Of a stretch of DNA of 64,000 bases, positions 3,001 to 6,000 are shown piece after piece. Source of the stretch: Escherichia coli (GTDB lineage: Bacteria > Pseudomonadota > Gammaproteobacteria > Enterobacterales > Enterobacteriaceae); the NCBI RefSeq assembly GCF_002854065.1, contig NZ_CP024154.1; one strand, written 5' to 3'. Made by a program: the position numbers. Position 1 is the first letter of the stretch. Each line of letters begins with the position of its first letter.

Positions 3001-6000
3001 CGGTGCATCGCCGGTGGGGGCCATACCACTGTCAGCGGAATACAGCTGATGCCATCCGGTCGCCCGTTTTTGTGAGTCCGGTTCACACAGCAGCGGAGCA
3101 GTCCGCTTTGTACTGGACTCCCCGCCAATCACGGAGACCGGATAAATCACCACGCTGAATTCCCGGGCCAGTTGCTTAAGCGCGGGTTCCAGCAGACGGC
3201 AGTTGATGCATGCGGGGTCAAGGAAGGCGTACAGCGTGCGTTCATGACCAGTGGACAGGTTAATGGTGAACATCCCCCGGTCTGCGTTGCGTTTAAGTAC
3301 TGTGGCCAGATTACGGCGGGCCTCAGCGGCCTGAACGTGTTGTTCTTCCGTCACTGCCGTCGGGGCGGGGGCAGAAGAAGGTTCCTGCTGTGTGGGAGCC
3401 GGGCGGGCCGGGATGCTGTTAACATGATGTTCCGTATGTGGGCGTGGTGTCTCTGTGTCGGTTACTGGTTCAGCTCTCCATTCCTGAGATGTAGGGTAAG
3501 CCAGCGTGGAAGGGGACTCTGCCTTCATCCAGTGGTAACCTGCAACTGTCGCCGGCAGAGCAATTCCGGCGATAAAGCCACACATCAGTGTCCGCCAGAA
3601 GCCATTTTTCCGGGAGGGATGTTTTCCTTTTCCGGCATATTCGGCATCCAGGCAGGCATCAATCGCTGAGAGCATTCTGCCGATGTGATGTCCGGGACGT
3701 TCTGCATCAACGGTATCAACAAGCACCGTTTCAGTTATTTCGCGAAAAGGGGAACTGAAGGACAGGTGCATCAGCCTGTTATTACGGTTAATCAGTGCGC
3801 CCAGTTCTGTTACCGGCAGGATGGCAATCACCTCCCGATTACCGTCAGGGTACAGGGCGGTCAGGGACAGGTGTTTATTATTCAGTGTTGCAGTGTAGTG
3901 GATGGTCATTGTTCTTTTTCCTTGTCGGCGGGATGCTGTTTTTCGGTGGTTTCGGTGGTTTCGGTGGTTTCGGTGGTTTCGGTGGTTTCGGTGGTTTCGG
4001 TGGTTTCGGTGGTTTCACCAGTGTCAGTGTCTTCGTCGTTATCATGGCGGCGGGGTATCACGTCATCCGTGAGTGACCAGCGGGTCCTGATCTGACGTTT
4101 ACGATCGCGATCTGGCTGAGGTTCGTCCCATATCAGGCCCAGCCCCAGCATGTCCCGTCGAAGCCCTTCAATGGCCTCTTCCACACAGGGTTCCGGGCAG
4201 GGGAGGCCGAGACGGCTGGCTTCATTTTCTGCCCGGGCAACGGCCACCACGCCGGCCCCTTCGATGAAGCCTTTTGTGGTGTTTGCCCGGTGAAGGGCAT
4301 AGAAGAGCGTCCGGTCAACGCCCTTGAGCCACAGCCAGTTGGGGGGCGTCAGGCGCAAATCATGTGCGTAAAGCCAGACAAGACCGCTGCGAACGTAACG
4401 GTGCTGCCTGAGCCACTGTTGTGCGTCTTCTGTTTTTATGACCCGGATAAAGGCGTTTCTGGCCAGTGAATACACTGGCGTGCTGAAACGCCCCTGGTCC
4501 CGCTTGCTTTTGAGTCTGCAGGAGAGGTTGAGGTTATTCATCAGGGAAACAGCCGATTTCCGGTCCCCAAGGAAGAACTGCAGGCCAAAGACGGCAAAGA
4601 GTGCTTTTTCATGTGGAGCCATGTCTTTCCAGGTGGTCAGAGGCTGGCCCAGTTGCGCCATAAAGCACTGGCGCGTGGCCGCAACATCGAGCTGCATGTT
4701 GCGGATAAGGTTGTTCTGCTCCACAAAGGCTTCGGGGGTTAGAGCGACACGGCGCTCGGGACGTTTTTGTCCGTGGAAGAGTCTGTTGCTGTCTCCGTCA
4801 GCCAGAACGGGGGCGATCGCCGGTGACAGTGATGAAAACAGATGTGGCAGCGTGTGGATATTCAGTGGTCTGCGGGTGAAGCGGGGCTGGGCCGGATGCT
4901 GAAACCACATCCACAGAAAGCCGATCGTCATGGGAAGCAGAATCAGCCAGAGGATCCCCACGGTCTGTGACATGACATCCAGCCACTGGCTGAAAGTGAT
5001 CGTTGCAGCGTTGTTGGCGGTGTTGGCCAGCAGGTTATAACGGGGGGCGGCAAAATGGTGAAAAGGCCCCCAGTCAGTCATCCCCCACATTGTGTGCAGG
5101 ATCAGGCAGGTGGCAAAGACGATGTCGGGTAAAAAGAGCCAGATGAGAAGCGCAAAGAGCAGACATATGGTGCCAACGATATACCATATGTTCATCGGGT
5201 CTTCTGTTGTGGGGGAGTGTTGGTAAGACACGAGGATTCCTCCATCGATAAATAGATAAATTTCGGGATGAGGCTGAGTGGAATTAATGCGAACAATCGC
5301 CGGTAATGACCGGGCAGGGCTGAATTCAGCAGGGCATTTTCACAGGAACAGCAGAAGGTGGTGAGAGACAGGCACAAAAAAGCCGACTGGTGAGGCCGGC
5401 TTTTTTGCGATCCCAGGGAGAGTGGGTGGCTCTGGCCCGGAGGAAGTCTCTTTTCAACTAACGTTACCAGAATATCGTTATATTCACCTGATCGCAATCT
5501 GTTCGTTACAGTCTATTGTTCCGGGAGTAGCGATATCGCCTGAAACAAGTATAATCAGCAAGTTAGCCTTGTCTGGAGACTTACCTTCGCATCAATCCAT
5601 TTGCCGTATTTTCGTAAAATTCAACAGGAAATATTCAACGGGAGTGAGAGAACTGCTGTCCGGGGAGGAGGTACAGACGCAAAAAAACCGACTGGTGAGG
5701 CCGGTTTTTTTGCGATTCCGGATCGAAGTTGGTAGCCCTGACCGGAAGATAACTGCCTATAACTGACTATGAAATAATACGGCTGAAATAATATTTCTGC
5801 AAGCACAGTATAAGTATATACTCGGTGTGTCAGCTTTGAGGCACGTTCTTTCCGGCATATCGTTCACCGGGATGAACAGGTTGCAAGTCCTGGCCAAAAC
5901 ATCAGGTGGTGCTGGTTTTGGTGCTCTGGCCGGAGAAGAACTGTCTATAACTGACACTATAGAAAACGTGGCGACAGGCAATGTAAGGGCAAACCACGGT

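What the first reader, a model, noticed from the sequence alone, without database searches (positions are those of the whole stretch)
5376..5717. Two near-identical 36-bp A-run/GC-core/T-run elements bracketing a ~270-bp non-coding segment between trbA and nuc
The element can fold as a symmetric hairpin with A and T runs on either side, so it could terminate transcription in both directions. Two copies about 300 bp apart bracket a segment with no convincing ORF. This may delimit a small RNA gene or be a small repeated palindromic element; the track ORF 5422-5766 here is probably not coding.
Basis: seen in the sequence. Interest (0 to 1): 0.35.

Follow-up and report, generated by a model that had tools for sequence, protein, structure and literature searches.

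The report
Two antitoxin RNA genes, one orphaned
The two repeated hairpins are the terminator ends of two small antisense-RNA genes of a known plasmid toxin-antitoxin family (DqlB/AgrB): one guards the toxin gene next door, and the other lost its own toxin gene in a 420-bp deletion, so this is an ordinary member of a known system with a small evolutionary twist.

Summary
Two 36-mers (5376-5411 and 5681-5716) are 34/36 identical, lie 305 bp apart, and occur nowhere else in the window. They are not free-standing palindromes. Each is the 3' terminator helix of an ~88-nt minus-strand sRNA of the AgrB family (Rfam RF02891), at 5679-5766 (47.7 bits) and 5374-5461 (37.4 bits).

The whole stretch 5340-6185 is collinear with the E. 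coli K-12 dinQ-agrA-agrB type I toxin-antitoxin locus. The toxin here is dqlB (6028-6123), on an IncK2/Z plasmid.

- **Proximal sRNA:** it pairs with the dqlB leader (5912-5955) at -54.7 kcal/mol and is the likely antitoxin.
- **Distal sRNA:** it pairs poorly with that leader (-39.8). It pairs almost perfectly (-65.7) with the leader of a second toxin gene, dqlB', which sits between the two sRNAs in close relatives.
- **Deletion:** the window lacks exactly 420 bp, flanked by a CCAT microhomology. The deletion removed dqlB' with its target box and terminator, so the distal sRNA is an orphan antitoxin.
- **Spacer:** the "non-coding segment" is promoters plus a leader stub.

The junction is identical in 133 plasmid records, and 153 keep both modules. 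The DqlB/AgrB family was validated in 2025, so this is a new member of a known kind and of modest interest.

The parts
5374..5461 (-). Distal AgrB-like sRNA gene. It is an orphan antitoxin whose cognate toxin dqlB' has been deleted from this plasmid.
   Evidence: Rfam AgrB scores 37.4 bits, E=5.6e-4, over the full model 1-84; this is below the gathering score of 40. My own covariance model scores 80.6 bits. It is 100% identical to sRNA-1 of L003. Duplex energy with the L003 dqlB' leader is -65.7 kcal/mol, against -39.8 with the resident dqlB leader.
5374..5408 (-). 3' terminator helix of the distal sRNA (14 bp, A-run paired to U-run).
   Evidence: Fold. Family-wide covariation: 97.7% of cells paired and 4 compensatory pairs.
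5469..5497 (-). Inferred sigma-70 promoter of the distal sRNA: -35 TTGCGA (5492-5497), 17-nt spacer, -10 TATTCT (5469-5474), start at T5461.
   Evidence: Read from the sequence. It has the same geometry as the K-12 agrA/agrB promoters and is identical to the promoter in the two-module relative L003. It matches 8 of 12 consensus positions, so the scan did not list it.
5550..5600 (+). Stub of the lost toxin gene dqlB': -10 TATAAT (5550-5555), inferred +1 at about G5562, and the first ~39 nt of its leader.
   Evidence: Window 5218-5600 equals L003 398-780 at 99.5%. In L003 this runs on into the target box, the dqlB' ORF and its terminator.
5597..5600 (.). Deletion junction: the 4-bp microhomology CCAT. 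420 bp (L003 781-1200) are missing here.
   Evidence: The blastn blocks overlap by 4 nt. The exact junction 30-mer occurs in 133 plasmid records.
5601..5678 (.). DNA that lay downstream of dqlB' in the ancestor, now the spacer leading to the proximal terminator.
   Evidence: Window 5597-6400 equals L003 1201-2004 at 99.9%.
5679..5766 (-). Proximal AgrB-like sRNA gene, the presumed cognate antitoxin of dqlB.
   Evidence: Rfam AgrB scores 47.7 bits (gathering score 40), E=3e-6, over the full model. My own model scores 91.3 bits. The fold is -29.5 kcal/mol, z=-4.64. Its duplex with 5912-5955 is -54.7 kcal/mol with 38 pairs, against shuffles of -29.6 +/- 3.1.
5679..5713 (-). 3' terminator helix of the proximal sRNA.
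5774..5802 (-). Inferred promoter of the proximal sRNA: -35 TTGCAG (5797-5802), 17-nt spacer, -10 TATTAT (5774-5779), start at T5766.
   Evidence: Read from the sequence. It aligns with the K-12 agrA promoter (TTGCAA-17-TAGCAT).
5817..5829 (+). Inferred dqlB -10 (TATACT, 5817-5822) and +1 (G5829). No LexA operator is present here.
   Evidence: Homology to the K-12 dinQ +1 region (GTTAGCTCTGAGGCA aligned with GTCAGCTTTGAGGCA) (+1 placed from the numbering in PMC5066626). No CTG-N10-CAG lies at the promoter.
5912..5955 (+). Antisense target box in the dqlB 5' UTR. This is the third partial repeat.
   Evidence: Repeat D2, duplexes, and alignment to the agrB target region of dinQ.
6005..6023 (+). 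Shine-Dalgarno hairpin (SD GGAG at 6018-6021), with the same spacing to the start codon as in dinQ.
6028..6123 (+). dqlB, the 31-aa DinQ-like type I membrane toxin (MINLLIIVLRAVVAVANAVIALLELIRELVD).
   Evidence: NCBIfam NF041473 scores 63.7 bits against a cut-off of 35. It is annotated as dqlB in the identical RefSeq plasmid.
6143..6172 (+). dqlB terminator hairpin.
   Evidence: Inverted repeat I3. It aligns with the dinQ terminator.

Best explanation
The two elements are the Rho-independent terminator helices of two paralogous AgrB-family antisense sRNA genes. Both are transcribed on the minus strand and belong to a plasmid-borne DinQ-like (dqlB/agrB) type I toxin-antitoxin locus on an IncK2/Z plasmid. 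[quoted passage not shown] This should keep the ribosome-binding site closed and expose the duplex to RNase III. The membrane toxin would then be made only when the short-lived sRNA is no longer supplied, as happens after plasmid loss. The distal sRNA (5374-5461) is the antitoxin of a second tandem module, dqlB', which has a different target-box sequence. A single 420-bp microhomology-mediated deletion removed dqlB' together with its target box and terminator, leaving its promoter, about 39 nt of leader and its sRNA. In this plasmid the distal sRNA is therefore an orphan antitoxin with no cognate target. Shown here: homology, architecture, pairing specificity, covariation, and the deletion. 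Inferred: transcription, processing, RNase III cleavage, toxicity, and post-segregational killing.
For: - **Family match:** both copies match Rfam AgrB over the full model, on the minus strand. My own covariance model finds exactly these two copies in the 64-kb window.
- **Collinearity with K-12:** 5340-6185 aligns element by element with K-12 dinQ-agrA-agrB (two sRNAs, target box, SD, ORF, terminator) at 74% column identity.
- **Toxin:** the ORF is a full-length hit to the DqlB equivalog model, 63.7 bits against a cut-off of 35.
- **Pairing:** proximal x dqlB is -54.7 kcal/mol and distal x dqlB is -39.8. Distal x dqlB' of L003 is -65.7 and proximal x dqlB' is -41.2. Shuffled sRNAs average about -30 to -33 and reach -41 at best.
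- **Intermolecular covariation:** across 17 sRNA-toxin neighbours from IncI, IncK, IncX3, IncX4, IncL/M, IncF, IncHI2 and K-12, neighbours average -57.4 kcal/mol. The other 272 combinations average -36.9 +/- 8.1, and the neighbour ranks first or tied-first almost everywhere.
- **Structure:** the terminator helix is 97.7% paired (0/500 shuffles reach this), has 4 compensatory pairs, and collapses in slid-register controls. The inner stem has 3 compensatory pairs.
- **Deletion:** window 5218-5600 equals L003 398-780 and window 5597-6400 equals L003 1201-2004, overlapping by CCAT. L003 holds two annotated dqlB genes, and its sRNAs are identical to the window's.
- **Counts:** the junction 30-mer is in 133 records and the intact boundary in 153.
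- **Experimental support for the family:** dinQ/agrB mechanism (PMC3567139, PMC5066626); DqlB toxicity, agrB rescue and addiction on pOXA-48 and pOXA-484 (PMC12365149, PMC12317039).
Against: - There are no expression data for this plasmid.
- The distal copy is below Rfam's gathering score (37.4 against 40).
- Both sRNA promoters match only 8 of 12 consensus positions and the promoter scan did not call them. The mapped K-12 agr promoters are no better.
- The proximal sRNA-target duplex is imperfect: 4 G-U pairs and 2 mismatches in the 33-nt box. Its energy lies between K-12 agrB (-66.6, functional) and agrA (-51.1, reported non-functional).
- IncI1-type sRNAs would pair with this box better (-58 and -60) than the plasmid's own sRNA does.
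- The dinQ-type leader switch is reproduced in silico for dinQ and dqlB' but not for the resident dqlB, whose SD hairpin stays closed at every truncation tested.
- The direction of the event (deletion here rather than insertion in L003) is inferred from parsimony.
Confidence: 0.85

Rival explanations
1. The orphan distal sRNA is not mere debris. It is retained because it acts in trans on dqlB' type toxin mRNAs carried by other plasmids. That would give cross-immunity (anti-addiction) in plasmid-plasmid competition, for example when this plasmid displaces a two-module relative or shares a cell with a plasmid of matching specificity.
For: - The orphan keeps an intact promoter and is 100% identical to the working copy in two-module plasmids.
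- It pairs at -63.5 kcal/mol with the leaders of L003 dqlB' and L004 (a plasmid typed IncFIA/FIB/FIC that carries I-type transfer genes: MOBP relaxase, MPF_I, trbA) and at -59 with L006 (IncI-gamma/K1).
- 220 plasmid records and 175 of 5426 complete E. coli genomes carry a matching leader box, almost all on plasmids.
- Toxin loss with sRNA retention recurs independently. L017 has its toxin deleted with one sRNA kept. L009 has a toxin truncated to 24 aa. L018 has three sRNAs of three different specificities and no toxin, and about 258 records share that layout.
Against: Losing the toxin first is the only viable order of decay for any toxin-antitoxin module, so orphan antitoxins are expected without any selection. 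The orphan shows no divergence from its intact counterpart, so the deletion may simply be recent and no test for selection is possible. I made no co-occurrence or competition test.
Confidence: 0.2
2. The distal sRNA is a second, AgrA-like regulator of the resident dqlB. It would be a weaker or auxiliary antisense RNA acting on the primary transcript rather than an orphan.
For: In K-12 both agrA and agrB lower the full-length dinQ transcript (PMC3567139). The distal sRNA shares the conserved core GCUCUGGCCGGAG-complement with the dqlB box and still forms 36 interrupted pairs with it.
Against: Its -38 to -40 kcal/mol falls within the range reached by shuffled sRNAs, whose best is about -41. It is weaker than K-12 agrA x dinQ (-51), which does not block translation in vitro (PMC5066626). 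Its near-perfect partner exists, and it is the deleted dqlB' leader.
Confidence: 0.07
3. One reading: the hairpins work chiefly as two-way terminators or insulators that delimit a plus-strand small transcript lying between them.
For: Both hairpins are called terminator-like on the plus strand. After the deletion, the surviving dqlB' promoter (-10 TATAAT at 5550-5555) points at the proximal hairpin. A plus-strand remnant RNA of about 150 nt (about 5562-5712) is therefore plausible, and stopping it would protect the proximal sRNA gene from convergent transcription. This is inference.
Against: Such a transcript would be a truncated toxin leader without a target box or an ORF, not a gene. The hairpins are conserved as the 3' helices of minus-strand sRNAs across many plasmid groups, with covariation that includes pairs outside the A/U runs. 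Nothing on the plus strand reads into the distal hairpin from the left, because trbA lies on the other strand.
Confidence: 0.08
4. The elements are copies of a dispersed palindromic repeat (REP-, BIME- or MITE-like).
For: They are palindromic, short and repeated.
Against: There are only two copies in 64 kb. Each copy is embedded in a full-length AgrB-family sRNA. In 18 loci searched the element never appears without the sRNA body.
Confidence: 0.01

Closest known systems
E. coli K-12 dinQ-agrA-agrB type I toxin-antitoxin locus (Weel-Sneve 2013, PMC3567139; Kristiansen 2016, PMC5066626)
   Same: - The layout is the same: two tandem ~85-nt sRNAs transcribed divergently from a small hydrophobic toxin gene.
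- The sRNA 5' end is complementary to a box in the toxin 5' UTR.
- SD spacing is the same, the terminators are homologous, and the region aligns at 74% column identity.
- One sRNA pairs well and the other poorly, with a gap of about 15 kcal/mol in both loci.
   Different: - The toxin is DqlB (31 aa), not DinQ (27 aa).
- The LexA operator that overlaps the dinQ -10/+1 has no counterpart here.
- The well-pairing sRNA is the proximal one here and the distal one (agrB) in K-12.
- The poorly pairing copy here is not a decayed duplicate. It is a perfect match for a second toxin gene that was deleted.
- I found no such relic in the K-12 spacer.
Plasmid DqlB-agrB addiction modules of pOXA-48 (IncL; PMC12365149) and pOXA-484 (IncX3; PMC12317039)
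   Same: They belong to the same toxin family (NCBIfam DqlB equivalog) and are plasmid-borne, with an sRNA whose 5' end pairs with about 35 nt of the dqlB 5' UTR. dqlB is reported in 83.2% of IncB/O/K/Z plasmids, the group this window belongs to.
   Different: Those loci were described with one sRNA, and agrA was explicitly not found on IncX3. Here there are two sRNA genes of different specificity, derived from two tandem modules, and one of them is orphaned. Toxicity and rescue were tested for those plasmids and not for this one. The pOXA-48-type sRNA is so diverged that Rfam misses it, and my own model gives it only 36-39 bits.
zorO-orzO / zorP-orzP tandem type I modules of E. coli O157 (Zor/Orz family; own knowledge plus PMC5397157)
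   Same: These are tandemly duplicated modules in which each sRNA pairs through its 5' end with the long 5' UTR of its own toxin mRNA. The terminators of the plasmid Agr-like sRNAs hit the 3' part of Rfam OrzO-P with the same loop, CCUCACCAG (28.7-30.8 bits).
   Different: The toxin family differs, the hit is only a partial sub-threshold match to the terminator, and both zor toxins are present.
tisB/istR-1 and hok/sok
   Same: These are type I systems with a leader that is inert until processed and an unstable antisense RNA. hok/sok is the classical plasmid post-segregational killing system, and one copy lies 3.5 kb away in this window (9255-9411).
   Different: There is no sequence homology. 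Sok overlaps its target gene, whereas Agr-like sRNAs are encoded apart from the target and act in trans.

Membership tests
AgrB sRNA family (Rfam RF02891), antitoxin of DinQ/Dql type I systems | A covariance-model match at or above the curated gathering score (40 bits), over the full model length | tested here: met
   The proximal copy scores 47.7 bits over model 1-84. The distal copy scores 37.4 bits, below threshold, with E=5.6e-4 and a full-length match. A family model built here gives 91.3 and 80.6 bits.
AgrB sRNA family (Rfam RF02891), antitoxin of DinQ/Dql type I systems | Encoded upstream of a dinQ/dql toxin gene, transcribed divergently from it, and not overlapping it | tested here: met
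   The proximal 5' end at 5766 lies 262 nt from the dqlB start at 6028, on the opposite strand. For the distal copy this holds only in relatives that keep dqlB', such as L003. In the window its toxin is absent.
AgrB sRNA family (Rfam RF02891), antitoxin of DinQ/Dql type I systems | About 31-36 nt at the sRNA 5' end complementary to the toxin 5' UTR upstream of the SD | tested here: met
   Proximal x 5912-5955 gives 38 pairs at -54.7 kcal/mol, against shuffles of -29.6 +/- 3.1. The distal copy does not meet this against the resident dqlB (-39.8) but does against dqlB' of L003 (41 pairs, -65.7).
AgrB sRNA family (Rfam RF02891), antitoxin of DinQ/Dql type I systems | A Rho-independent terminator and an internal stem-loop | tested here: met
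   Folds. Covariation supports both the terminator helix and the inner stem.
AgrB sRNA family (Rfam RF02891), antitoxin of DinQ/Dql type I systems | The sRNA is expressed and neutralises the toxin | not testable with these tools
   This needs Northern or RNA-seq data and toxicity-rescue assays. It has been shown for K-12, pOXA-48 and pOXA-484 only (PMC3567139, PMC12365149, PMC12317039).
DqlB toxin (NCBIfam NF041473, equivalog) | A full-length match above the curated cut-off | tested here: met
   63.7 bits against a cut-off of 35, residues 1-31 of 31.
dinQ proper (SOS-regulated chromosomal locus) | A LexA operator overlapping the toxin promoter | tested here: not met
   The K-12 box CTGTATGATTATCCAG has no counterpart here. 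The only CTG-N10-CAG nearby (5890) lies inside the transcript and is not conserved with K-12. The locus is therefore a dql locus and not a dinQ ortholog.
dinQ-type translational switch (mutually exclusive leader structures, activated by 5' processing) | The SD is closed in the full-length mRNA, opens after 5' truncation, and re-closes when the target box is occupied | tested here: inconclusive
   The in-silico probability that the SD is unpaired is 0.05/0.21/0.02 for K-12 and 0.00/0.52/0.00 for L003 dqlB'. For the window's dqlB it is 0.00/0.01/0.00, and it never opens at truncations of 0-88 nt. The sequence elements are present by alignment.
Dispersed palindromic repeats (REP/BIME/MITE-like) | Many dispersed copies that are independent of any one gene | tested here: not met
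   There are two copies in 64 kb, and both lie inside sRNA genes.
Bidirectional intrinsic terminator | A GC-containing hairpin flanked by an A-run and a T-run so that either strand reads hairpin plus U-tract, with termination observed in both directions | tested here: inconclusive
   The sequence geometry is met on both strands. Termination itself cannot be tested here.

The most novel reading that the evidence does not exclude
Orphan AgrB-like sRNAs on I-complex plasmids are kept as trans-acting immunity genes. Examples are the distal copy here and the toxin-less array of three sRNAs with three specificities on about 258 IncI-type plasmids. DqlB modules come in several mutually insulated pairing specificities. 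A plasmid that sheds a toxin but keeps or collects the sRNAs would become immune to post-segregational killing by rival plasmids of those specificities, at lower cost to itself.
Probability: 0.2. Interest if true: 0.6.

Novelty: new member of a known kind. Interest (0 to 1): 0.3.

Why it matters
The finding turns an apparently empty 800-bp gap in a widespread family of resistance plasmids (IncB/O/K/Z) into a fully parsed maintenance locus. The locus holds one complete type I toxin-antitoxin module plus the surviving antitoxin of a second. RefSeq marks only the toxin, and neither sRNA gene is annotated on this plasmid or on its two-module relative.

Three points go slightly beyond what the papers I could read report:

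- DqlB modules can be tandemly duplicated, with diverged and apparently insulated sRNA-target specificities.
- An extra Agr-like sRNA can be an orphan of a deleted toxin rather than a decayed duplicate.
- Toxin loss with sRNA retention recurs in several plasmid lineages.

If orphan sRNAs protect against the toxins of competing plasmids, that would bear on plasmid competition and on strategies that cure plasmids by triggering their addiction systems.

Tried and rejected
- **Second locus in the window.** I looked for a second dql/agr locus or another target for the distal sRNA. blastn, tblastn and a tiled duplex scan found nothing beyond chance; the best other duplex was -36.8 kcal/mol.
- **LexA control.** No operator lies at the dqlB promoter.
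- **K-12 relic.** I tested whether K-12's agrA/agrB pair is itself a relic of two tandem modules. Local alignments of the agrB-agrA spacer against four toxin leaders were no better than shuffles, with 42 to 427 of 500 shuffles scoring as high. I rejected this idea.
- **Junction count.** A 60-nt junction query was confounded because the tool joins nearby pieces. I replaced it with 30-mers that can match only one arrangement.
- **RNAalifold on the 17-sRNA alignment.** It missed the terminator stem because some 3' ends were misaligned. I re-aligned the 3' ends and counted the pairs explicitly.
- **Leader switch.** In-silico modelling worked for dinQ and dqlB' but not for the resident dqlB. This is left unexplained.
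- **ORFs.** ORF 5422-5766 and the 58-aa ORF at 6186-6362 gave no NCBIfam hit.
- **Literature.** Searches found no description of tandem or orphan dqlB/agr arrangements on I-complex plasmids.
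Full report
**1.

The repeat finder reports a 52-nt direct repeat at 5363-5414 and 5668-5719 (87% identity, spacing 305). Each holds a hairpin between an A-run and a T-run. A 29-nt core pattern with up to 3 mismatches occurs only at these two sites in 64 kb, and none is expected by chance.

The two differences between the copies (G5382/A5687 and C5400/T5705) are the two sides of one stem pair, so they form a compensatory change.

**2. What the elements are**

A scan against Rfam places both hairpins at the 3' end of full-length matches to AgrB (RF02891), on the minus strand. The match at 5679-5766 scores 47.7 bits (gathering score 40, E=3e-6). The match at 5374-5461 scores 37.4 bits (E=5.6e-4). 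Only the first passes the curated threshold in a whole-window scan.

The window is 100% identical over this region to many plasmids. [quoted passage not shown] Its 31-aa product is a full-length match to the NCBIfam DqlB equivalog (63.7 bits, cut-off 35).

Aligned with the K-12 dinQ-agrA-agrB locus, window 5340-6185 is collinear element by element. Both sRNAs, the antisense target box, the SD with identical spacing, the ORF and the terminator all correspond, at 74% column identity.

The hairpins are therefore the terminators of two Agr-like sRNA genes. The body of each sRNA lies to the right of its hairpin in plus-strand coordinates, not between the two hairpins.

**3. The hairpin is a selected RNA structure**

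I aligned the 3' ends of 16 distinct family members and counted pairs for a 14-bp helix (A-run paired with U-run). 97.7% of cells are paired, and 0 of 500 shuffles reach that. Four pairs show changes on both sides. The covariation score is 0.351, against 0.134 +/- 0.020 in shuffles, and every slid register collapses to 41-59% paired.

The pairs outside the A/U runs covary as well. The A-run is therefore part of the sRNA's 3' helix rather than a T-tract serving the other strand. The inner stem-loop also shows 3 compensatory pairs.

**4. Which sRNA serves the resident toxin**

RNA duplex predictions used the first 45 nt of each sRNA:

| sRNA x target | Energy (kcal/mol) | Pairs |
|---|---|---|
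| Proximal x dqlB leader (5912-5955) | -54.7 | 38 |
| Distal x dqlB leader | -39.8 | 36, interrupted |
| K-12 agrB x dinQ | -66.6 | 42 |
| K-12 agrA x dinQ | -51.1 | 40 |

In K-12 only agrB, with 30 of 31 positions complementary, blocks translation and counteracts toxicity. agrA (25 of 31) does not (PMC3567139, PMC5066626). The distal copy has no better target anywhere else in the window.

**5. Where the distal sRNA comes from**

A close relative with the same trbA-to-nuclease context (L003, NZ_CP024247.1) carries two annotated dqlB genes in tandem. Each lies downstream of an sRNA identical to one of the window's two.

blastn shows that window 5218-5600 equals L003 398-780 (99.5%) and window 5597-6400 equals L003 1201-2004 (99.9%). 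The two blocks share the 4 nt CCAT. The window therefore lacks 420 bp (L003 781-1200). In L003 that segment holds most of the first toxin's leader including its target box, the ORF dqlB' (which differs from DqlB by L22I), its terminator, and about 100 nt beyond.

The distal sRNA pairs with that lost leader at -65.7 kcal/mol with 41 pairs. The proximal sRNA reaches only -41.2 on it. Shuffled sRNAs average about -30 to -33 and reach -41.5 at best. The two modules are about 81% identical paralogs with diverged, apparently insulated specificities.

- the body of the distal sRNA;
- its promoter (TTGCGA-17-TATTCT);
- the surviving dqlB' promoter (-10 TATAAT at 5550-5555) with about 39 nt of leader;
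- the deletion junction;
- DNA that formerly lay downstream of dqlB'.

**6. How common each form is**

A 30-mer centred on the junction, which cannot match the intact form, is found in 133 plasmid records: 86 Escherichia, 40 Shigella, 5 Klebsiella and 2 Salmonella. A 30-mer across the intact left boundary is found in 153 records. Because the junction is identical throughout, the deletion was a single event that has since spread with a successful lineage.

**7. Family-wide support for the antisense mechanism**

I collected 23 sRNAs and 17 toxin leaders. They came from plasmids typed as IncK2/Z, IncI-gamma/K1, IncX3, IncX4, IncL/M, IncFIB, IncFIA/FIB/FIC with I-type transfer genes, and IncHI2/N, plus K-12.

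An sRNA paired with its neighbouring toxin leader averages -57.4 kcal/mol (n=17). All other combinations average -36.9 +/- 8.1 (n=272). The neighbour is the best or tied-best partner almost everywhere. The sRNA 5' ends are the most variable part of the molecule, yet they track their own target boxes. This is intermolecular covariation.

By homology with dinQ/agrB, the sRNA should hold the SD closed and create an RNase III substrate (PMC5066626). On plasmids the module acts as an addiction system: DqlB is toxic, agrB rescues, and cells die on plasmid loss (PMC12365149, PMC12317039). Those steps are inferred for this plasmid and not shown.

**8. Differences from dinQ, and open points**

- **No LexA operator.** The operator that overlaps the dinQ -10/+1 has no counterpart here. 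Constitutive expression would suit a plasmid-maintenance role. This is inference.
- **Imperfect pairing.** The proximal sRNA's pairing has 4 G-U pairs and 2 mismatches in the 33-nt box. IncI1-type sRNAs would pair with this box better (-58 and -60).
- **Leader switch not reproduced.** A thermodynamic model reproduces the closed/open/closed SD switch for dinQ (0.05/0.21/0.02) and for dqlB' (0.00/0.52/0.00). For the resident dqlB the SD hairpin stays closed at all truncations. I leave this unexplained.
- **Plausible stub transcript.** After the deletion the dqlB' promoter points at the proximal hairpin, which is terminator-like on the plus strand too. This is inference.

**9. Recurrence of orphans**

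- L017 (IncK2/Z) keeps one sRNA, while its toxin leader is fused directly to the 3' half of the toxin terminator.
- L009 (K. oxytoca, IncFIB) has two modules, and the first toxin is truncated to 24 aa.
- L018 (IncI-gamma/K1) has three tandem sRNAs of three specificities and no DqlB ORF at all. About 258 records share that layout.
- Leader boxes that match the window's orphan occur in 220 plasmid records and in 175 of 5426 complete E. coli genomes, almost only on plasmids.

Losing the toxin first is the only viable order of decay, so orphans are expected under neutrality. Whether they are also kept as cross-immunity genes is the most novel reading that the data do not exclude. I put it at about 0.2.

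**10. Novelty and verdict**

The dql family was named in 2016 (PMC5066626). DqlB-agrB was validated as an addiction module in 2025 on IncL and IncX3 plasmids, with dqlB reported in 83.2% of IncB/O/K/Z plasmids (PMC12365149, PMC12317039). T1TAdb notes that an AgrA paralog can accompany AgrB (PMC8594479).

I found no description of tandem dqlB modules with distinct specificities, or of an orphan sRNA created by toxin deletion. RefSeq does not annotate either sRNA on this plasmid.

The finding is real and is now explained. It is a new member of a known kind, with a modest evolutionary twist. Interest: 0.3.

Noticed in passing
window 9255-9411 (+): A full-length Rfam sok match (RF01794, 124.7 bits) marks a hok/sok (pnd-like) type I module about 3.5 kb from the dqlB locus, with a Hok/Gef CDS annotated in the identical plasmid. 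The plasmid therefore carries at least two type I addiction systems.
   Followed up: no
window 53490-53639 (+): The PK-repZ pseudoknot (RF01087, 162.5 bits) is the I-complex replication-control element, which fits the IncK2/Z typing.
   Followed up: no
window 63697-63712 and 63724-63739 (+): Two LexA-box-like sites lie 27 nt apart (CTGTATGTTTATACAG and CTGAATCCGCACACAG). They resemble the pair reported upstream of impCAB on plasmid pTF2 (PMC12211044, Table 1). SOS control exists on this plasmid, but not at dqlB.
   Followed up: partly
window about 3930-4010, inside trbA (3906-5231, minus strand): The C-terminus of TrbA carries a run of eight TTE tripeptide repeats (ETTETTETTE...). This is a 9-bp tandem repeat that may vary in length between plasmids. 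The TrbA proteins annotated in the related loci have different accession numbers.
   Followed up: no
window 6186-6362 (-); L003 1094-1214: A conserved 58-aa hypothetical ORF (WP_001054907.1) directly follows dqlB in many I-complex loci and matches no NCBIfam family. A truncated paralogous piece of it follows dqlB' in L003, so the ~729-bp tandem duplication unit included its 3' part.
   Followed up: partly
window 5376-5406 and 5681-5711 (-): The sRNA terminators also hit the 3' part of Rfam OrzO-P (RF02083, model positions 46-76, 28.7-30.8 bits) with the same loop, CCUCACCAG. This hints at kinship or convergence between the Zor/Orz and DinQ/Agr antitoxin RNAs.
   Followed up: no
L018 1505-2211 (NZ_AP024115.1, IncI-gamma/K1): Three tandem Agr-like sRNA genes of three different pairing specificities lie here with no DqlB ORF at all. 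About 258 plasmid records share this layout at 80% coverage or more.
   Followed up: partly
L013 332-413 (IncX4 pNE92-2): An extra Agr-like sRNA sits upstream of the cognate one and has no good target among the 17 leaders tested (best -37.6 kcal/mol). It may be another orphan or a decayed copy.
   Followed up: no
window 6005-6023 (+); L007: The SD hairpin of the resident dqlB (7 bp, UUCUCCA-UUGA-UGGAGAA) is predicted to stay closed whatever the 5' truncation, unlike in dinQ and dqlB'. IncI1 L007 has a near-identical 7-bp hairpin (loop GUGA instead of UUGA).
   Followed up: partly
L014 1023-1097 and L015 1020-1093 (IncL/M, pOXA-48-like): The experimentally validated agrB of pOXA-48-type plasmids is missed by Rfam AgrB at E<=1. 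My own model finds it at only 36-39 bits, so the Rfam family under-covers plasmid Agr-like sRNAs.
   Followed up: partly
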